64,000 nucleotides of DNA, taken from the NCBI RefSeq assembly GCF_054482525.1, contig NZ_CM137006.1; one strand, written 5' to 3'. Both the position numbers and the translations under genes were made by a program. Of this stretch, positions 33,781-63,016 are shown piece by piece; within the stretch, counting starts at the first letter, position 1, and each line of letters begins with the position of its first letter. The notes under the pieces were generated by a model. It saw nothing but the letters and a program-made list of their open reading frames with translations. It ran no database searches and had not been told where the DNA came from.

Positions 33781-33987
33781 ATTGTCATTCCATTGAAATA
33801 GATACGAATATACGTAATAGCATAAAAAATTTATTTTTTCAGGAGGCGCAATATGTATTTTTATTACGCATTTCTTCGCTGAATATGTAATATTTAAATA
33901 TTTGCTTCCAATATAACCTGTAGAATAAATTATACTGCGCCATTTTTCAGATCATCGGGACGCCTCGCAAGTTTTCTTCATCCTTCG

Positions 33988-37397: not shown

Positions 37398-37417
37398 TGA
37401 AATGTTATAATATCACA
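37398..37417. promoter_or_regulatory. Zur box in the divergent znuCB/znuA promoter region
   Basis: TGAAATGTTATAATATCACA, an AT-rich palindrome matching the known Zur operator, lies between the divergent starts. Confidence 0.75.
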
Positions 37418-37450: not shown

Positions 37451-38383
37451 ATGTTACATAAAAAAACGCTTCTTTTCGCAGCATTATCCGCCGCTCTCTG
37501 GGGCGGTGCAACACAGGCCGCAGATGCTGCCGTTGTCGCTTCGCTTAAACCCGTTGGGTTCATCGCTTCTGCCATTGCTGATGGGGTAACAGAAACGGAG
37601 GTTTTACTACCTGACGGCGCTTCAGAACATGATTATTCACTGCGTCCATCAGATGTAAAACGCTTACAGAACGCGGACTTAGTCGTTTGGGTTGGCCCGG
37701 AGATGGAAGCGTTCATGCAAAAACCGGTAAGTAAATTACCTGAAGCGAAACAGGTAACGATTGCGCAGCTAGAGAATGTGAAACCGCTGCTGATGAAAAG
37801 TATTCACGGCGATGATGATGATCACGACCACGCGGAAAAAAGTGACGAAGATCACCATCACGGCGATTTCAACATGCATCTTTGGCTTTCCCCAGAGATA
37901 GCGCGGGCTACAGCGGTTGCAATCCATGGAAAATTAGTGGAACTTATGCCGCAAAGTCGAGCCAAACTTGACGCCAACTTGAAGGATTTTGAGGCACAAT
38001 TAGCCTCAACCGAAAAGCAGGTTGGTAACGAGCTCGCGCCGCTCAAGGGGAAAGGTTATTTCGTTTTTCACGATGCTTACGGCTATTTCGAAAAACAGTT
38101 CGGACTGACACCGCTTGGTCATTTTACCGTTAACCCTGAGATTCAACCTGGCGCGCAGCGTTTACATGAAATAAGAACACAGTTGGTTGAGCAAAAAGCA
38201 ACCTGCGTTTTTGCTGAGCCACAGTTCAGGCCAGCGGTCGTTGAGAGCGTCGCACGAGGGACATCCGTTCGTATGGGAACGTTGGATCCCCTGGGGACGA
38301 ATATCAAACTGGGTAAAACAAGCTATTCAGAATTCCTGAATCAATTAGCCAACCAGTATGCGAGCTGCCTGAAAGGAGATTAA
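37451..38383 (+). CDS. znuA: periplasmic zinc-binding protein ZnuA
   Basis: ORF 37325..38383; ATG at 37451 gives the 310-aa [14 protein letters not shown] form with signal peptide; His/Asp-rich loop present. Confidence 0.92.
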
Positions 38384-40840: not shown

Positions 40841-41449
40841 GCCGTGTGATAAGTTCAAGTTTGCTTCAGAAGATTCGAAATCTGTTGAACTATCATTGAA
40901 CTGTAGGCCGGATGAGGCGTTTTGAACTGCACCCCAAATGTTGGACATAATCTGACATCTGAAGGTGCAGTTTATGAAACATTCATTTGAAGTAAAACTT
41001 GCCGCTGTAAATCACTACCTGGCTGGTCATGCAGGCATCATTTCTACGGCAAAACTCTTTCAACTTTCTCACACCAGCCTCTCACACTGGATTAATCTTT
41101 TTCTTCTTCACGGTCCTCGGGCACTGGATTGCAGACACAAGCGTAGCTATTCTCCTGAAGATAAACTTTGCGTGGTTCTTTATGCTCTCGGGCATTCTGA
41201 GTCTCTACCCCGGGTAGCTGCCCGGTTTAACATTCCCAGCCACAACACGGTTAAAAACTGGATAAAAGGCTACCGCAAATCTGGTAATGAGGCCTTTATC
41301 AGGCGCAGGAAGGAGAAAAGCATGACCCGTTCTGATGATACCCATGAAAACGAGGCAAACATGACGCCGGAAGAGATGAAGAATGAGCTGCGTTATCTTC
41401 GCGCAGAAAATGCATATCTGAAAGCCATGCAGGAGCATCTCCTGGAAAA

Positions 41450-42354
<905 letters not shown>

Positions 42355-42379: not shown

Positions 42380-43822
42380 TTACTCTACCGTTAAAATACG
42401 CGTGGTATTAGTAGAACCCACGGTACTCATCACGTCGCCCTGGGTGACAATCACCAGGTCACCAGACATCAAGTAACCTTTATCGCGCAGCAGATTAACC
42501 GCTTCGCTGGCAGCTGCTACGCCGTCATTAGCGCTATCAAAGTGCACCGGCGTAACGCCGCGATAGAGAGCAGTCAGGTTCAGCGTACGTTCATGGCGTG
42601 ACATGGCGAAAATTGGCAGACCAGAGCTGATACGGGAGGTCATCAGCGCCGTACGACCCGATTCGGTCATGGTGATGATCGCCGTAACGCCTTTCAGGTG
42701 GTTAGCCGCGTACATTGCTGACATGGCGATAGCTTCTTCCACATTGTCGAACTGAACGTCCAGACGGTGTTTAGAAACGTTGATGCTCGGGATTTTTTCC
42801 GCACCCAGGCAAACGCGCGCCATGGCTGCAACAGTTTCTGAAGGATACTGACCAGCAGCAGTTTCTGCAGAAAGCATCACAGCGTCAGTACCATCCAGAA
42901 CGGCGTTTGCTACGTCCATGACTTCTGCACGCGTCGGCATCGGGTTAGTAATCATTGACTCCATCATCTGGGTCGCCGTGATTACTGCGCGGTTAAGCTG
43001 ACGCGCACGACGGATCAACGCTTTCTGAATGCCGACCAGTTCCGGGTCGCCAATTTCCACACCGAGGTCGCCACGTGCAACCATTACCACGTCAGAGGCG
43101 AGGATGATGTCATCCATTGCATCCTGGCTGCAAACGGCTTCCGCACGTTCAACCTTGGCAACAATTTTCGCATCACAGCCTGCATCGCGTGCCAGGCGAC
43201 GGGCATAGTTCAGATCTTCGCCGCAGCGTGGGAAGGAGACAGCCAGGTAATCTACGCCAATTAACGCCGCAGTCTTAATGTCTGCTTTGTCTTTTTCGGT
43301 CAGCGCTTCAGCCGACAAACCGCCGCCAAGTTTGTTGATACCTTTATTGTTGGAGAGGGGACCACCGACGGTCACTTCGGTGAACACTTTCATGCCCTGA
43401 ACTTCCAGTACTTTTAACTGAACGCGACCATCGTCCAGCAGCAGGATGTCACCAGGCACGACGTCAGCAGGCAGGCCTTTGTAGTCGATACCGACTTTTT
43501 CTTTGTCGCCTTCACCTTTACCCAGGTTGGCGTCGAGCAGGAATTTATCCCCAATATTGAGGAAAACTTTGCCTTCTTTAAAGGTGGATACACGGATTTT
43601 GGGCCCCTGGAGGTCACCCAGAATAGCCACATGACGCCCCAGTTTTGCGGCAATCTCACGAACTTTATCCGCGCGCATTTTGTGATCTTCAGGCGAGCCG
43701 TGAGAAAAGTTCATACGTACAACGTTTGCACCCGCTGCGATAACTTTTTCAAGGTTATTATCGCGATCTGTTGCTGGGCCTAACGTGGTAACGATTTTAG
43801 TTCTGCGAAGCCTTCTGGACAT
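42380..43822 (-). CDS. pykA: pyruvate kinase II
   Basis: ORF 42380..43963; the PykA N-terminus [19 protein letters not shown] starts at 43822 (480 aa); the 47 extra upstream codons are not part of the gene. Confidence 0.93.
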
Positions 43823-43949: not shown

Positions 43950-44819
43950 TTAGCGATCGTCACTTAAATTAAGTAACTGCTTATCAAAACGCGATTCCTT
44001 CAGCGCTTCCTTGACCCGCTTCAAGTTATCTCTGAATTTTGCACCGCGTCGCAAAGTAAATCCTGTCGCCAGCACATCTATCACGGTCAGCTGCGCAAGT
44101 CGAGAAACCATGGGCATATAAATGTCAGTATCTTCCGGTACGTCGAGGGTAATTGCCAGCGTTGCTTCCCGGGCGAGCGGGGTACCCGCAGAGGTGAGGG
44201 CAATCACCATGGCGTCGTTTTCGCGTGCCAGCTGCGCCAGCTCGACCAGATTTTTTGTTCTTCCCGTGTGAGAAATCAGCACCACCACGTCTCCGTCGCT
44301 ACAATTCATACAACTCATGCGTTGCAGCACAATATCATCGGAGTACACCACCGGAACATTAAAACGAAAGAACTTATTCATCGCATCGTGGGCAACGGCG
44401 GCTGAAGAGCCTAATCCGAAAAAGGCGATTTTTTTTGCCTGAGTGAGCAAGTCGACGGCGCGGTTGATGGCAGATTTATCCAGTGAATGACGGACATGAT
44501 CGAGCGTTGCCATTGCGGACTCAAATATTTTCCCCGTGTATGATTCAACGCTGTCATCTTCATTGACGTTGCGATTAACATAGGGAGTGCCATTCGCCAG
44601 ACTTTGTGCCAGATGAAGTTTAAAATCAGGAAAACCGCGCGTATCCATGCTGCGACAGAAACGATTCACCGTCGGTTCGCTAACATTGGCTTCCAGCGCC
44701 AGAGCAGCAATACTCGAATGGATCGCGTTATCGGGAGAAGCCAGAATGACCTCGGCAACTTTGCGCTCTGATTTGCTCAAATGTTCCAGCTGAGACTGGA
44801 TTTTTTCCAGCATATTCAT
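43950..44819 (-). CDS. hexR: RpiR-family transcriptional regulator HexR
   Basis: 289-aa ORF with HTH and SIS domains. Confidence 0.92.
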
Positions 44820-45093
44820 GATGTAAAGAGACTCACGGGTAATGACGATTTCCGCACTGAAAGAAATCGAAATGCAGTTTTGTCAGATATTACGCCTGTG
44901 TGCTGTGTTAATGACAAAAGCAGATAAAAAAGTTGTTATTTTTTTTCATAACATGATCAGTGTCAGATTTTTACCCAATGGAAAACGATGATTTTTTTAT
45001 CAGTTTTGCCGCACTTTGCGCGCTTTTACCGTAATCGCACGGGTGGATAAGCGTTTACAGTTTTCGCAAGCTCGTAAAAGCAGTACAGTGCAC

Positions 45094-45108
45094 CGTAAGA
45101 AAATTACA
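45094..45108. promoter_or_regulatory. candidate HexR operator upstream of zwf
   Basis: CGTAAGAAAATTACA, an inverted repeat GTAA-N5-TTAC resembling the HexR-box palindrome as I recall it, about 50 bp upstream of the zwf ATG. Confidence 0.35.
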
Positions 45109-45156
45109 AGTATACCCTGGCTTAAGTACCGGGATAGTTAACTTAAGGAGAATGAC

Positions 45157-46632
45157 ATGGCGGTAACGCAAACAGCCCAGGCCTGTGACCTGGTCATTTT
45201 CGGCGCGAAAGGCGACCTTGCGCGTCGTAAATTGCTGCCTTCCCTGTATCAACTGGAAAAAGCCGGTCAGCTCAACCCGGACACCCGGATTATCGGCGTA
45301 GGGCGTGCTGACTGGGATAAAGCGGCTTATACCAAAGTTGTCCGCGAGGCGCTCGAAACTTTCATGAAAGAAACCATTGATGAAGGTTTATGGGACACCC
45401 TGAGTGCACGTCTGGATTTTTGTAATCTCGATGTCAATGACACTGCTGCATTCAGCCGTCTCGGCGCGATGCTGGATCAAAAAAATCGTATCACCATTAA
45501 CTACTTTGCCATGCCGCCCAGCACTTTTGGCGCAATTTGCAAAGGGCTTGGCGAGGCAAAACTGAATGCTAAACCGGCACGCGTAGTCATGGAGAAACCG
45601 CTGGGGACGTCGCTGGCGACCTCGCAGGAAATCAATGATCAGGTTGGCGAATACTTCGAGGAGTGCCAGGTTTACCGTATCGACCACTATCTTGGTAAAG
45701 AAACGGTGCTGAACCTGTTGGCGCTGCGTTTTGCTAACTCCCTGTTTGTGAATAACTGGGACAATCGCACCATTGATCATGTTGAGATTACCGTGGCAGA
45801 AGAAGTGGGGATCGAAGGGCGCTGGGGCTATTTTGATAAAGCCGGTCAGATGCGCGACATGATCCAGAACCACCTGCTGCAAATTCTTTGCATGATTGCG
45901 ATGTCTCCGCCGTCTGACCTGAGTGCAGACAGCATCCGCGATGAAAAAGTGAAAGTACTGAAGTCTCTGCGCCGCATTGACCGCTCCAACGTGCGCGAAA
46001 AAACCGTACGCGGGCAATATACTGCGGGCTTCGCCCAGGGCAAAAAAGTGCCGGGATATCTGGAAGAAGAGGGCGCGAACAAGAGCAGCAATACAGAAAC
46101 CTTCGTGGCGATCCGCGTCGACATTGATAACTGGCGCTGGGCCGGTGTGCCATTCTACCTGCGTACTGGTAAACGTCTGCCGACCAAATGTTCTGAAGTC
46201 GTGGTCTATTTCAAAACACCTGAACTGAATCTGTTTAAAGAGTCGTGGCAGGATCTACCGCAAAATAAACTGACTATCCGTCTGCAACCTGATGAAGGCG
46301 TGGATATCCAGGTACTGAATAAAGTTCCTGGCCTTGACCACAAACATAACCTGCAAATCACCAAGCTGGACCTGAGCTATTCAGAAACCTTTAATCAGAC
46401 GCATCTGGCGGATGCCTATGAACGTCTGCTGCTGGAAACCATGCGTGGTATTCAGGCACTGTTTGTTCGTCGTGATGAAGTGGAAGAAGCCTGGAAATGG
46501 GTAGACTCCATTACTGAGGCGTGGGCGATGGACAATGATGCGCCGAAACCGTATCAGGCCGGAACCTGGGGACCCGTTGCCTCGGTGGCAATGATTACCC
46601 GTGATGGTCGTTCCTGGAATGAGTTTGAGTAA
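45157..46632 (+). CDS. zwf: glucose-6-phosphate 1-dehydrogenase
   Basis: 491-aa ORF matching G6PD. Confidence 0.97.
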
Positions 46633-46866: not shown

Positions 46867-48678
46867 ATGAATCCACAATTGTTACGCGTAACAAATCGAA
46901 TCATTGAACGTTCGCGCGAGACTCGCTCTGCTTACCTCGCCCGGATAGAACAAGCGAAAACTTCGACCGTTCATCGTTCGCAGTTGGCATGTGGTAACCT
47001 GGCACACGGTTTCGCTGCCTGCCAGCCAGAAGACAAAGCCTCTTTGAAAAGCATGTTGCGTAACAATATCGCCATCATCACCTCCTATAACGACATGCTC
47101 TCCGCGCACCAGCCTTATGAACACTATCCAGAAATCATTCGTAAAGCCCTGCATGAAGCAAATGCGGTTGGTCAGGTTGCGGGCGGTGTTCCGGCGATGT
47201 GTGATGGTGTCACCCAGGGGCAGGATGGAATGGAATTGTCGCTGTTAAGCCGCGAAGTGATTGCGATGTCTGCGGCGGTGGGGTTGTCCCATAACATGTT
47301 TGATGGTGCGCTGTTCCTCGGAGTGTGCGACAAGATTGTTCCGGGTCTGACTATGGCAGCCCTGTCGTTTGGGCATTTGCCTGCGGTGTTTGTGCCGTCT
47401 GGACCGATGGCAAGCGGTTTGCCAAATAAAGAAAAAGTGCGTATTCGCCAGCTTTATGCCGAAGGTAAAGTGGACCGCATGGCATTACTGGAGTCAGAAG
47501 CCGCGTCTTATCATGCGCCGGGAACATGTACTTTCTACGGTACTGCCAACACCAACCAGATGGTGGTGGAGTTTATGGGGATGCAGTTGCCAGGCTCTTC
47601 TTTTGTTCATCCGGATTCTCCGCTGCGCGATGCTTTGACCGCAGCCGCTGCGCGCCAGGTTACACGCATGACCGGTAATGGTAATGAATGGATGCCGATC
47701 GGTAAGATGATAGATGAGAAAGTGGTGGTGAACGGTATCGTTGCACTGCTGGCGACCGGTGGTTCCACTAACCACACCATGCACCTGGTGGCGATGGCAC
47801 GCGCGGCCGGTATTCAGATTAACTGGGATGACTTCTCTGACCTTTCTGATGTTGTACCGCTGATGGCACGTCTCTACCCGAACGGTCCGGCCGATATTAA
47901 CCACTTCCAGGCGGCAGGTGGCGTACCGGTTCTGGTGCGTGAACTGCTCAAAGCAGGCCTGCTGCATGAAGATGTCAATACGGTGGCAGGCTTTGGTCTG
48001 TCTCGTTATACCCTTGAACCATGGCTGAATAATGGTGAACTGGACTGGCGGGAAGGGGCGGAAAAATCACTCGACAGCAATGTGATCGCTTCCTTCGAAC
48101 AACCTTTCTCTCATCATGGTGGGACAAAAGTGTTAAGCGGTAACCTGGGCCGTGCGGTTATGAAAACCTCTGCCGTGCCGGTTGAGAACCAGGTGATTGA
48201 AGCGCCTGCGGTTGTTTTTGAAAGCCAGCATGACGTTATGCCGGCCTTTGAAGCGGGTTTGCTGGACCGCGATTGTGTCGTTGTTGTCCGTCATCAGGGG
48301 CCAAAAGCGAACGGAATGCCAGAATTACATAAACTCATGCCGCCACTTGGTGTATTATTGGACCGGTGTTTCAAAATTGCGTTAGTTACTGATGGACGAC
48401 TCTCCGGCGCTTCAGGTAAAGTGCCGTCAGCTATCCACGTAACACCAGAAGCCTACGATGGCGGGCTGCTGGCAAAAGTGCGCGACGGGGACATCATTCG
48501 TGTGAATGGACAGACAGGCGAACTGACGCTGCTGGTAGACGAAGCGGAACTGGCTGCTCGCGAACCACACATTCCTGACCTGAGCGCGTCACGCGTGGGA
48601 ACAGGACGTGAATTATTCAGCGCCTTGCGTGAAAAACTGTCCGGTGCCGAACAGGGCGCAACCTGTATCACTTTTTAA
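46867..48678 (+). CDS. edd: phosphogluconate dehydratase (Entner-Doudoroff)
   Basis: 603-aa ORF matching Edd. Confidence 0.97.
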
Positions 48679-48714: not shown

Positions 48715-49356
48715 ATGAAAAACTGGAAAACAAGTGCAGAATCAATCCTGACCACCGGCCCGGTTGTACCGGTTATCGTGGTAAAAAAACTGGAACACGC
48801 GGTGCCGATGGCAAAAGCGTTGGTTGCTGGTGGGGTGCGCGTTCTGGAAGTGACTCTGCGTACCGAGTGTGCAGTTGACGCTATCCGTGCTATCGCCAAA
48901 GAAGTGCCTGAAGCGATTGTGGGTGCCGGTACGGTGCTGAATCCACAGCAGCTGGCAGAAGTCACCGAAGCGGGTGCACAGTTCGCAATTAGCCCGGGGC
49001 TGACCGAGCCGCTGCTGAAGGCTGCTACCGAAGGGACTATTCCTCTGATTCCGGGGATCAGCACTGTTTCCGAACTGATGCTGGGTATGGACTACGGTTT
49101 GAAAGAGTTCAAATTCTTCCCGGCTGAAGCTAACGGCGGTGTGAAAGCCCTGCAGGCGATCGCGGGTCCGTTCTCCCAGGTCCGTTTCTGCCCGACGGGT
49201 GGTATTTCTCCGGCTAACTACCGTGACTACCTGGCGCTGAAAAGCGTGCTGTGCATCGGTGGTTCCTGGCTGGTTCCGGCAGATGCGCTGGAAGCGGGCG
49301 ATTACGACCGCATTACTAAGCTGGCGCGTGAAGCTGTAGAAGGCGCTAAGCTGTAA
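48715..49356 (+). CDS. eda: KDPG / KHG aldolase
   Basis: 213-aa ORF matching Eda. Confidence 0.97.
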
Positions 49357-51762: not shown

Positions 51763-52422
51763 ATGGCTAACTGGTTAAATCAACTGCAATCCTTGCTTGG
51801 GCAAAGCAGTTCTTCTGCCTCCTCGTCTGCGGATCAGGGATTGGGCAAACTTTTAGTGCCAGGCGCATTAGGCGGACTGGCTGGGCTGCTGGTCGCAAAT
51901 AAATCAGCACGTAAACTTCTTACGAAATATGGCACCAACGCGTTACTGGTTGGCGGCGGAGCGGTCGCGGGTACGGTGCTGTGGAATAAATACAAAGATA
52001 AAATTCGCGCGGCGCATCAGGACGAACCGCAGTTTGGCGCGCAAAGTACGCCGCTGGATGAGCGTACGGAACGTTTGATCCTTGCGCTGGTCTTTGCCGC
52101 TAAAAGTGATGGTCATATTGATGCCAAAGAACGTGCGGCAATCGACCTGCAATTGCGTGAAGCCGGCGTGGAAGAACAGGGGCGTGTACTCATTGAGCAG
52201 GCAATCGAACAACCGCTGGATCCACAACGCCTGGCTACCGGGGTCCGCAATGAAGAAGAGGCGCTGGAAATCTATTTCCTGAGCTGCGCGGCTATTGATA
52301 TTGACCATTTTATGGAACGCAGTTACCTGAATGCACTGGGTGACGCGCTGAAAATCCCCCAGGATGTTCGTGACGGCATTGAACGCGATCTCGAACAGCA
52401 AAAACGTACTTTGGCGGAATAA
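51763..52422 (+). CDS. yebE: DUF533-family inner membrane protein YebE
   Basis: 219-aa ORF matching YebE. Confidence 0.9.
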
Positions 52423-61576: not shown

Positions 61577-63016
61577 TCAGGCGTTACCGGTAAAAAGTTT
61601 CCCGTCTCGCACCAGTTCACGCGGGTAGCTGTTTTTCAGTCGCGAACCAATTCGTTTGGCTAAACCAATCGGCTGATGCTGGAAAGTTACCAATACATCA
61701 TCCGCTACTGGCGCGGCTTGCGGGTAAACATCGCGCCCGCGATACCACTCTTCCGCCTCCTGCGGTGTCAGTTCAAAAGCGTTCACATTGTCGGGGGAGG
61801 CAAGGGCAATAACCGCTTCATGCTGCCAGCGATAACCTTTGTTATGCGTTTCGGCAAGTTTAATCCCCAGGCGAGAAAATCGGACTTTACCGATCAGGGC
61901 TTCAATGCCTACCGGGAACAACCACAGTTCTTTGTCGCGTTGCCAGAGTCGCAGGTTTCCATCCCAGTTTAAGCCAACACTTGCAGCCGCCTGACAAATT
62001 TGTCCAGCTTCGCGATCTTTCACCGGGCTGAACGGGAAATTGCCCACTTTGTATTTTGGGGCGGGTAAGGCGGGAATCGCCTGAGTTTTACGCAGACGAG
62101 CAACGAAGAAGCCTTCGCAGTCGTAAATTTGTGGGAAAACATGCAAAAAGCCTTCTTCTGTCAGCGCCTTGTTTGCACCAGGGAAGAGATCGCCAAGCGG
62201 TAAAAACTCTACTGCGTCGGGGTAAGTCTCTTTCAGCCACAGGCAAACTGCTTCGTTTTCTTCCCTGTTTAAGGTACAGGTCGAGTAAACCAGCGTACCG
62301 CCAGGGCGTAATGCATGAAAGGCGCTGTCGATCAGTTCCCGTTGGGTAGCTGCGATTTCCTGATTGCTTTCTGGTGACCAGTTTTTTAGCGCATCGGGAT
62401 CTTTACGCACCACGCCTTCGCCGGAGCAGGGAGCGTCCAGCAAAATGGCATCGAACATTTCTGGCACTGCCGCACCAAATACACGGCCATCAAAATGCGT
62501 GAGCGCAACATTACGGATGCCACAGCGGCTGATATTGGCATGTAACACTTTTACTCGACTGGCGGAAAACTCATTGGCAAGGATCGCCCCTTCGTTATTC
62601 ATCCGCGCGGCAATTTGCGTCGTTTTGGAGCCTGGCGCAGCAGCGACATCCATCACCCGCTGTGGTGCATTACCGTCAGCAAACAAGGCGGCGACGGGCA
62701 ACATTGAACTGGCTTCCTGAATATAAAACAGGCCACTTAAATGCTCGGCGGTACTACCCAACGGCAATGCATCTTCATCGTCGCGTTCAATCCAGAAACC
62801 TCCTTCACTCCACGGAATTGGCGTAAGCGTCCAGCCATAAGGAGCGGTTAATTGCAGGAAATCAGCAACGGAGATTTTCAGCGTATTAACGCGAATGCTG
62901 CGGCGCAACGGGCGCTGACAGGCGGCAAGAAAATCATCAAAAGAGAGCGTCGAAGGCATCGCTTCGCGCATTTGCGTCAGAAAGGCGTCCGGGAAATAAA
63001 CGGTGTGTTGGGCCAC
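61577..63016 (-). CDS. rsmF: 16S rRNA m5C1407 methyltransferase RsmF
   Basis: ORF 61577..63022; NOL1/NOP2/Sun-family methyltransferase; the GTG at 63016 would give a 479-aa product (ATG at 63022 is an alternative start). Confidence 0.9.

What the first reader, a model, noticed from the sequence alone, without database searches (positions are those of the whole stretch)
45094..45108. Possible HexR operator immediately upstream of zwf
CGTAAGAAAATTACA is a GTAA-N5-TTAC inverted repeat matching about 12 of 15 positions of the HexR-box consensus as I recall it, placed between divergent hexR-pykA and zwf, suggesting HexR control of zwf.
Basis: inference. Interest (0 to 1): 0.25.

Follow-up and report, generated by a model that had tools for sequence, protein, structure and literature searches.

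The report
HexR repressor site at zwf start
The 15-base inverted repeat is real and is almost certainly the binding site through which the sugar-sensing repressor HexR switches off the E. coli zwf gene, a link already predicted by published comparative genomics, so it is a sound but ordinary finding.

Summary
The window is E. coli chromosome (pykA-hexR <> zwf-edd-eda). CGTAAGAAAATTACA is at 45094-45108 as described, 49-63 nt upstream of the zwf ATG. Counting mismatches to the published HexR consensus TGTAATTAAATTACA (12/15) is not significant on its own across 64 kb. Conservation decides the case. All 79 Enterobacterales hexR<>zwf loci examined carry the box, and 42 read TGTAATAAAATTACA. It is the most conserved stretch of the intergenic region (1.82 bits per column against 0.5-0.85 in the flanks). 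It always starts 5-6 nt after the conserved -10 hexamer, although its distance to the ATG ranges from 39 to 215 nt. It therefore covers the zwf transcription start (about -2 to +13), downstream of the SoxS/MarA box. Substitutions break the dyad and are never compensated, so an RNA hairpin is unlikely. The same motif lies next to hexR homologues of about 45% identity in 3 of 6 distant loci. Best reading: a HexR operator that blocks RNA polymerase and is relieved by KDPG, as at P. putida Pzwf. HexR control of zwf in Enterobacteriales is already published as a prediction. Caveat: the only E. coli HexR gel shift I found used a fragment (44851-44976) that excludes this site. Low novelty and low interest.

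The parts
45094..45108 (.). 15-bp HexR-box core CGTAAG-AAA-ATTACA (17-bp extended form CCGTAAGAAAATTACAA, 45093-45109). Left half-site CGTAAG is degenerate; right half-site ATTACA is exact.
   Evidence: Scores 21.1 bits and is the only hit of 8 bits or more in the intergenic region. Present in 79/79 orthologous loci. The 47 bp around it are identical in 5404 of 5417 matching E. coli genomes.
45084..45089 (+). zwf -10 hexamer TACAGT
   Evidence: Conserved as TACAGT/TACATT/TAGAGT in all aligned genera. Its position fits the geometry given in PMC9638938.
45061..45066 (+). zwf -35 element (TTTTCG, non-optimal)
   Evidence: Inferred: 17 bp upstream of the -10 hexamer and 7 bp downstream of the soxbox, as PMC9638938 describes.
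45034..45053 (+). SoxS/MarA/Rob box (soxbox) ATCGCACGGGTGGATAAGCG, which does not overlap the HexR box
   Evidence: Contains the GCAC element. The placement '7 bp upstream of the -35' and a scaffold running -62 to +13 come from PMC9638938. The exact sequence assignment is from my own knowledge.
45095..45096 (+). Inferred zwf transcription start. It puts the HexR box at about -2 to +13.
   Evidence: Inferred from the -10 position and the -62 soxbox edge. My recollection of a 62-nt leader (Rowley and Wolf 1991) gives 45095. Not measured here.
45157..46632 (+). zwf, glucose-6-phosphate dehydrogenase, the regulated gene
43950..44819 (-). hexR (yebK), an RpiR-family HTH_6 + SIS regulator, divergent from zwf

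Best explanation
The site is the operator of the divergently encoded repressor HexR (YebK) on the zwf promoter.

Proposed mechanism. A HexR dimer binds the imperfect palindrome CGTAAG-AAA-ATTACA through its N-terminal HTH domains. The box spans roughly -2 to +13 of zwf, directly after the -10 hexamer. Bound HexR would therefore block open-complex formation or promoter escape by RNA polymerase and lower zwf transcription. When the Entner-Doudoroff intermediate KDPG accumulates (growth on gluconate or hexuronates, or a block at Eda), it binds the C-terminal SIS domain, HexR leaves the DNA and zwf is derepressed. The SoxS/MarA/Rob activator site at -62 to -43 does not overlap the box, so stress activation and HexR repression can act independently.

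Shown here: the sequence, its position relative to the promoter elements, its extreme and dyad-symmetric conservation, and the association of the motif with hexR genes.

Taken from the literature: the consensus, the KDPG response of E. coli HexR, repression of zwf by HexR in Vibrio and Pseudomonas, and the prediction for Enterobacteriales.

Inferred: binding of E. coli HexR to this very site, the sign of the effect, and the exact transcription start.
For: - The sequence and its gene context are confirmed.
- All 79 hexR<>zwf loci from about 35 genera of Enterobacterales carry a match of 12/15 or better. Forty-two read TGTAATAAAATTACA, and positions 2, 4, 5, 9 and 11-14 are invariant.
- Mean information content is 1.82 bits per column in the box, about 1.4-1.6 in the -10 hexamer, 0.85 upstream and 0.54 downstream.
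- The box stays 5-6 nt after the -10 hexamer while its distance to the ATG varies from 39 to 215 nt, so it is tied to the promoter and not to the coding region or ribosome-binding site.
- There is one strong box per intergenic region in 72 of 79 loci, and none elsewhere in the window near edd, eda or pykA. This agrees with 'local regulator of zwf' (PMC5343134; PMC3223726).
- The enterobacterial matrix finds its best hit of a whole 7-9 kb locus in the gap next to hexR homologues of only 45-47% identity. L085 scores 18.4 bits 32 bp upstream of hexR. L088 scores 17.2 bits between gapA and hexR. L090 has two boxes between zwf and hexR.
- The regulator passes the NCBIfam HexR model.
- E. coli YebK/HexR binds DNA and is released by KDPG (PMC4488073).
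- In V. parahaemolyticus, deleting hexR raises zwf promoter activity.
- The P. putida HexR operator on Pzwf is footprinted at +1 to +30 and is said to block RNA polymerase progress (PMC5902321).
Against: - No experiment on this exact DNA was found. The only E. coli gel shift used a fragment that maps to 44851-44976 and excludes the site, yet it showed KDPG-reversible binding although its best matrix score is only 6.1 bits.
- The E. coli box is among the weakest of the family (21.1 bits against 26-28 in most genera), with two substitutions in the left half-site.
- I found no report that a hexR deletion changes zwf expression in E. coli. YebK was still listed among hypothetical transcription factors in 2018.
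- The transcription start is inferred, not measured here.
- The matrix score is partly circular, because the matrix was built from orthologues of the site.
Confidence: 0.85

Rival explanations
1. The conserved block is an intrinsic promoter or leader element, not a protein operator. It could be a preferred start-site or initially transcribed sequence, or a 5'-terminal RNA hairpin (GUAA/UUAC) that stabilises zwf mRNA.
For: The box begins at the inferred +1 and would be the first 13 nt or so of the mRNA. The central AAA is orientation-fixed and nearly invariant, which a purely symmetric protein site does not require.
Against: The predicted hairpin is marginal, at -1.2 to -1.6 kcal/mol. Every observed substitution in the arms (C at position 1, A at 3, G or C at 6) breaks the pairing, and no pair shows a change on both sides. 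Rfam finds nothing there. The sequence matches an independently defined HexR consensus, and the motif recurs in non-transcribed positions next to distant hexR genes.
Confidence: 0.06
2. It is the operator of a different E. coli regulator that uses TGTAA/TTACA half-sites, for example a TyrR-type box, and HexR is only a neighbour.
For: TyrR boxes (TGTAAA-N6-TTTACA, from my own knowledge) share the half-site letters. Mismatch counting is unspecific, since the Zur-box-like site at 37403-37417 also matches with 2 mismatches. An FNR ChIP-chip peak was reported for zwf/yebK without a motif (PMC1802558).
Against: The spacing is TGTAA-N5-TTACA in all 79 loci, not the N8 of TyrR boxes. zwf has no link to aromatic amino acid control. 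The motif travels with hexR across distant taxa. The box has no TTGAT-N4-ATCAA FNR core.
Confidence: 0.04
3. HexR binds here, but the main purpose is control of hexR itself or of both divergent genes. This would work through cooperation or looping with a second, non-canonical site near the hexR promoter, rather than by simple occlusion of zwf.
For: KDPG-reversible HexR binding was reported on 44851-44976, which lacks a canonical box. That fragment holds a block conserved in nearly all genera, which in most species contains one exact half-site ATTACA. The distance from the block to the operator changes mostly in steps of about 10-11 bp: 137, 145-149, 156-160, 167-169 and 188-189, with exceptions at 163 and 173-174. 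Rahnella has two strong boxes.
Against: The phasing analysis is not corrected for phylogeny, and most genera simply share the ancestral spacing of about 157. The box is 275 bp from the hexR ATG but sits exactly on the zwf start. Published reconstructions call HexR a local regulator of zwf. This reading extends the best explanation rather than excluding it.
Confidence: 0.05

Closest known systems
HexR regulog of Enterobacteriales in RegPrecise (Leyn et al. 2011, J Biol Chem 286:35782; Leyn et al. 2016, PMC5343134)
   Same: Same regulator, same target gene (zwf), same type of evidence (a conserved palindrome in orthologous promoters) and the same effector (KDPG). This finding is almost certainly the very site behind the published statement that HexR in Enterobacteriales is a local regulator of zwf.
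   Different: I could not read the 2011 paper or the RegPrecise site table. Identity of the published site with 45094-45108 is therefore inferred from there being only one strong box in the region.
HexR boxes of Shewanella and Vibrio (TGTAATTAAATTACA)
   Same: A 15-bp pseudo-palindrome with TGTAAT/ATTACA half-sites and a 3-nt A/T spacer. zwf is a target, and deleting hexR derepresses zwf in V. parahaemolyticus.
   Different: In those genera HexR is a global regulator of central carbon metabolism with many sites. In the E. coli window only this one site is seen. The E. coli left half-site has C at position 1 and G at position 6.
P. putida HexR operator on Pzwf (Daddaoua et al. 2009, summarised in PMC5902321)
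   Same: Same protein family and the same inducer, KDPG. The operator overlaps the zwf transcription start (+1 to +30) and blocks RNA polymerase. This is the best-documented mechanistic parallel.
   Different: The consensus there is written TTGT-N7/8-ACAA. The enterobacterial box reads TTGT-N9-ACAA in most genera, and CCGT-N9-ACAA in E. coli. The Pseudomonas regulon also includes edd and gap-1.
TyrR box (TGTAAA-N6-TTTACA)
   Same: Similar half-site letters (TGTAA/TTACA). This comparison rests on my own knowledge.
   Different: The spacing is 3 bp longer, the regulator family is different and the regulon is unrelated. It is not a member.

Membership tests
HexR (RpiR-family) operator, gamma-proteobacterial TGTAAT-N3-ATTACA type | A 15-17 bp imperfect palindrome matching TGTAATWWWATTACA | tested here: met
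   12/15 to the strict consensus, 13/15 with W, and 10/12 half-site positions. Scores 21.1 bits on a symmetrised matrix of 65 orthologous sites, against a simulated 64-kb maximum of 17.8.
HexR (RpiR-family) operator, gamma-proteobacterial TGTAAT-N3-ATTACA type | Located in the promoter region of a core HexR-regulon gene (zwf, edd-eda, glk, pykA or hexR) | tested here: met
   It lies 49-63 nt upstream of the zwf ATG, directly after the -10 hexamer, in the hexR<>zwf intergenic region. zwf is listed as a core regulon member in 72 genomes.
HexR (RpiR-family) operator, gamma-proteobacterial TGTAAT-N3-ATTACA type | The cognate HexR protein is encoded in the genome | tested here: met
   The 289-aa protein encoded at 43950-44819 scores 566.6 bits on NF008451 'transcriptional regulator HexR' (cut-off 296) and has HTH_6 + SIS domains. 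RefSeq names it HexR.
HexR (RpiR-family) operator, gamma-proteobacterial TGTAAT-N3-ATTACA type | The site is conserved in orthologous promoters of related genomes, above the level of the flanks | tested here: met
   Present in 79/79 loci, at 1.82 bits per column against 0.54-0.85 in the flanks. Identical in 5404/5417 E. coli genomes.
HexR (RpiR-family) operator, gamma-proteobacterial TGTAAT-N3-ATTACA type | The motif co-occurs with hexR in distant lineages, independently of the zwf orthologues used to build the matrix | tested here: inconclusive
   In 3 of 6 distinct loci encoding HexR homologues of 45-48% identity, the best hit lies in the gap next to hexR (L085 18.4 bits, L088 17.2 bits, L090 10.9 and 9.4 bits). 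The other three have weak hits or none. These are unnamed metagenome taxa.
HexR (RpiR-family) operator, gamma-proteobacterial TGTAAT-N3-ATTACA type | Direct, KDPG-sensitive binding of HexR to the site | not testable with these tools
   The published E. coli gel shift used 44851-44976, which excludes the site.
HexR (RpiR-family) operator, gamma-proteobacterial TGTAAT-N3-ATTACA type | HexR-dependent change of target-gene expression | not testable with these tools
   No E. coli data were found. Shown for Vibrio and Pseudomonas.
Pseudomonas-type HexR operator (TTGT-N7/8-ACAA) | TTGT and ACAA separated by 7 or 8 nt | tested here: not met
   The E. coli site reads CCGT-N9-ACAA, and most Enterobacterales read TTGT-N9-ACAA. 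It works like this operator (position on +1, same effector) but does not fit the consensus as written.
TyrR box | TGTAAA-N6-TTTACA, 18 bp | tested here: not met
   The half-sites are 3 bp closer together in all 79 loci. The TyrR consensus is from my own knowledge.

The most novel reading that the evidence does not exclude
E. coli HexR may use two kinds of site in the 337-bp hexR<>zwf region. One is the canonical box on the zwf start. The other would be a non-canonical, half-site-like element in the conserved block at 44933-44958, inside the fragment that was gel-shifted in PMC4488073. The two would be bridged by a DNA loop of about 13-15 helical turns, so that one KDPG signal sets both zwf and hexR. 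Two observations leave this open: spacing changes between the two elements fall mostly in steps of 10-11 bp across genera, and the published fragment has no canonical box.
Probability: 0.1. Interest if true: 0.35.

Novelty: already known. Interest (0 to 1): 0.15.

Why it matters
zwf is the entry point to the oxidative pentose-phosphate and Entner-Doudoroff routes and a main source of NADPH. In E. coli it is usually described as controlled by SoxS/MarA/Rob and by growth rate. A KDPG-responsive repressor sitting on the transcription start adds a metabolic feedback input. This matters for flux engineering, such as NADPH supply and Entner-Doudoroff activation, and for interpreting yebK/hexR mutations that arise in evolution experiments.

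The regulatory link itself is already published as a comparative-genomics prediction, so the finding mainly confirms existing knowledge. The one useful new point is that the only E. coli binding assay I found did not include this site. The key experiment therefore appears to be still undone.

Tried and rejected
- **Primary source.** Leyn et al. 2011 could not be read by PMC id or DOI. The supplement of Leyn et al. 2016 lists regulon genes but no site sequences. The RegPrecise matrix and the published E. coli site could therefore not be used directly.
- **Mismatch counting.** Counting mismatches to the consensus is unspecific and also picks up a Zur-box-like site. I replaced it with a matrix plus a conservation analysis.
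- **GTAA-N5-TTAC excess.** The apparent excess disappears after correcting for 4-mer frequencies and 256 tests.
- **Named Vibrio or Shewanella loci.** The search for homologous proteins listed only Enterobacterales. The 50%-identity representative library gave unnamed metagenome homologues. These were still useful as an independent check.
- **RNA-element reading.** The hairpin is weak, there are no compensatory changes, and Rfam finds nothing relevant.
- **E. coli hexR-mutant or ChIP data on zwf.** Six literature searches found none. One search was wasted by a badly chosen min_terms setting.
- **zwf leader palindrome as a structured RNA.** RNAalifold support is weak.
- **Map error, corrected.** My first gene map to the left of pykA was off by 1.4 kb because of an IS insertion. 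I corrected it.

Full report
**What is there.** The window is Escherichia coli chromosome. Bases 44700-45300 occur at 95% identity or more in 5425 of 5426 complete E. coli genomes, and the features under the match are annotated hexR and zwf. Using strain N3 as a guide, the local map is:
- pykA 42380-43822 (-)
- hexR 43950-44819 (-)
- zwf 45157-46632 (+)
- edd 46867-48678 (+)
- eda 48715-49356 (+)

It lies in the 337-bp hexR<>zwf gap, 49-63 nt before the zwf ATG.

**Is it more than chance?** By consensus matching alone it is not convincing.
- The HexR consensus quoted in the literature is TGTAATTAAATTACA (bioRxiv 10.1101/2024.07.16.603657, citing RegPrecise). The site matches 12 of 15 positions.
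- The 64-kb window has 3 sites at 3 or fewer mismatches against 1.84 expected. With W at the three central positions, one of the three best sites is the Zur-box-like palindrome between znuC and znuA.
- The apparent excess of GTAA-N5-TTAC (5 against 0.36 in shuffles) shrinks to 5 against 0.96 when 4-mer frequencies are used. It is what one expects for the most extreme of 256 4-mers.
- The expected number of such matches inside this particular 337-bp region is only about 0.01, which is more informative.

**Comparative evidence.** A scan of one genome per species with the HexR protein returned 80 loci from about 35 genera of Enterobacterales, from Escherichia to Serratia, Pectobacterium, Rahnella and Pantoea. 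In 79 of them (plus the E. coli reference locus) zwf is divergent from hexR.
- Every one of the 79 carries a match of 12/15 or better to TGTAATAAAATTACA upstream of zwf. Forty-two have exactly that sequence, and ten share the E. coli variant CGTAAGAAAATTACA.
- Over 68 non-redundant sequences anchored on the box, mean information content is 1.82 bits per column inside the 15-mer. It is about 1.4-1.6 in the -10 hexamer, 0.85 in the 33 columns upstream and 0.54 in the 25 columns downstream. A MAFFT alignment of 19 genera shows the same picture.
- The right half-site ATTACA is essentially invariant. Variation is confined to positions 1, 3 and 6 of the left half-site.
- The box always begins 5-6 nt after a conserved TACAGT/TACATT hexamer, while its distance to the ATG ranges from 39 nt (Pectobacterium) to 215 nt (Kluyvera). 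It therefore belongs to the promoter, not to the ribosome-binding region.
- Within E. coli, the 47 bp around it are identical in 5404 of 5417 matching genomes.
- A symmetrised matrix built from the 65 non-Escherichia sites scores the E. coli site 21.1 bits. The runner-up in the window scores 13.3 bits and overlaps the yobI start codon. The maximum in 100 simulated 64-kb sequences is 17.8 bits. This score is partly circular, because the matrix comes from orthologues.

**Link to HexR.** Four lines of evidence connect the box to HexR.
- The family consensus differs from the published HexR box only at one central W position.
- The neighbouring protein passes the NCBIfam HexR model (566.6 bits, cut-off 296) and has HTH_6 and SIS domains.
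- As an independent check, I fetched loci encoding HexR homologues of only 45-48% identity from unnamed metagenomic taxa and scanned them with the enterobacterial matrix. In 3 of 6 distinct loci the best hit of the whole 7-9 kb lies in the gap next to hexR. These are 18.4 bits 32 bp upstream of hexR (L085), 17.2 bits between gapA and hexR (L088), and two boxes between zwf-pgl-edd and hexR (L090).
- Published reconstructions state that HexR in Enterobacteriales is a local regulator of zwf (PMC5343134). [quoted passage not shown]

My scan agrees with 'local'. There is one strong box per intergenic region in 72 of 79 loci, and nothing comparable near edd, eda or pykA in the window.

**Position and mechanism.** PMC9638938 places the zwf soxbox 7 bp upstream of a non-optimal -35 element and uses a scaffold from -62 to +13.
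- With the soxbox at 45034-45053 (sequence assignment from my own knowledge), the -35 falls at 45061-45066. The conserved TACAGT lies at 45084-89 after a 17-bp spacer, and +1 is at about 45095-45096.
- The box therefore spans roughly -2 to +13, which is the classical position for a repressor that occludes RNA polymerase. It does not overlap the SoxS/MarA site.
- This mirrors P. putida, where the HexR operator on Pzwf is footprinted at +1 to +30. [quoted passage not shown]
- E. coli YebK/HexR is released from DNA by KDPG (PMC4488073). Deleting hexR raises zwf promoter activity in V. parahaemolyticus.

I conclude, with about 85% confidence, that this is the HexR operator of zwf and that it mediates KDPG-relieved repression.

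**Rivals.**
- RNA hairpin. A 5'-terminal hairpin is unlikely. Its predicted stability is -1.2 to -1.6 kcal/mol. All arm substitutions break the pairing and none is compensated. Rfam finds nothing.
- TyrR-type box. This has the same half-site letters but a spacing 3 bp longer, which is never seen here.
- FNR. An FNR ChIP-chip peak was reported for zwf/yebK without a motif (PMC1802558), but the box has no FNR core.

**Caveats and an unexplained point.** I found no experiment on this exact DNA.
- Primers for the only E. coli HexR gel shift map to 44851-44976, 118 bp away from the site. Yet KDPG-reversible binding was reported for that fragment, whose best matrix score is 6.1 bits.
- The fragment contains a block (44933-44958) conserved in nearly all genera. 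In most species it holds one exact half-site ATTACA.
- The distance from this block to the operator is 137 in E. coli, 145-149 or 156-160 in most genera, then 167-169 and 188-189, with exceptions at 163 and 173-174. Most length changes are therefore about one or more helical turns.
- This is not phylogenetically corrected and may be coincidence. It leaves room for a bridging or looping model (probability about 0.1).
- The E. coli box is at the weak end of the family (21.1 bits against 26-28).
- YebK was still listed as a hypothetical transcription factor in 2018. I found no E. coli hexR-mutant expression data.

**Novelty and verdict.** The regulatory link is already in the literature and in RegPrecise as a prediction, and the gene is annotated HexR, so this is 'already known'. 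I could not read the table that would prove the published site is this one. The single strong box per region makes that near certain. Interest is low (0.15). The useful residue is the precise placement on +1 and the observation that the published binding assay missed the site.

Noticed in passing
window 40924-42354: A 1.43-kb insertion relative to E. coli strain N3 (and apparently PCN033) between lpxM and pykA. It carries two ORFs, 40965-41495 (HTH_28/HTH_Tnp_1) and 41600-42322 (rve integrase core), which makes it an IS3-family insertion sequence. No terminal inverted repeats of 14 nt or more were detected.
   Followed up: partly
window 44851-44976: The 126-bp 'yebK promoter' fragment that E. 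coli HexR shifted in a KDPG-reversible way (PMC4488073) excludes the canonical box and has no good HexR motif (best 6.1 bits, TTGTTATTTTTTTTCAT at 44933-44949). What HexR recognises there is unexplained.
   Followed up: partly
window 44933-44958: A strongly conserved block, GTTGTT(A)-T8-CAT(A/T)ACATGATC, in the hexR-proximal half of the intergenic region. It may be the hexR core promoter. On the minus strand it reads TGTAAT in most genera, which is both -10-like and a HexR half-site. Its distance to the zwf operator changes mostly in steps of 10-11 bp across genera.
   Followed up: partly
window 44846-44872: An inverted repeat, CGATTTC-N11-GAAATCG, 27-50 nt upstream of the hexR ATG and conserved in 19 genera. 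It could be a leader RNA hairpin or a binding site for an unknown factor.
   Followed up: no
window 45117-45134: A palindrome or hairpin, CCTGG-N8-CCGGG (CCTGG...CCAGG in most genera), in the zwf leader. It is conserved, and a few species carry different but still complementary stems. RNAalifold support is weak (-1.5 kcal/mol, 2 pairs with double changes). Both arms are CCWGG (Dcm) sites in most genera; in E. coli only the left arm is.
   Followed up: partly
window 37403-37417: TGTTATAATATCACA in the znuC/znuA intergenic region, a Zur-box-like palindrome (the Zur assignment is from my own knowledge). It matches the HexR consensus with only 2 mismatches, which shows how unspecific consensus counting is.
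   Followed up: no
window 33853-33869: The second-best HexR-matrix hit in the window (13.3 bits, GCGTAATAAAAATACAT on the minus strand). It overlaps the start codon of the small gene yobI in an AT-rich stretch. About 0.14 such hits are expected per 64 kb by chance.
   Followed up: partly
window 37655-37667, 37727-37739, 51911-51923, 62542-62554: Four further GTAA-N5-TTAC inverted repeats. The first two are inside znuA, the third is inside yebE and the fourth was not examined. The excess over expectation is not significant after multiple testing.
   Followed up: partly
window ~44976-44990, compared with L002 and L003: The common E. coli intergenic region (337 bp) is 9-11 bp shorter than that of E. 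albertii (348 bp) and of a divergent 'E. coli' species representative (346 bp). The difference is an indel just right of the conserved block.
   Followed up: no
L077 and L078 (Rahnella), intergenic region: Two strong HexR boxes instead of one: TTGTCATAAAATTACAG at -233 and CTGAAATAAAATTACAA at -99 from the zwf ATG. Weaker second boxes occur at about -175 in three loci (L063, L064; -182 in L057, Buttiauxella).
   Followed up: no
zwf/yebK intergenic region (literature): An FNR ChIP-chip peak was reported at zwf/yebK and another at pykA, with no motif given for the first (PMC1802558).
   Followed up: no
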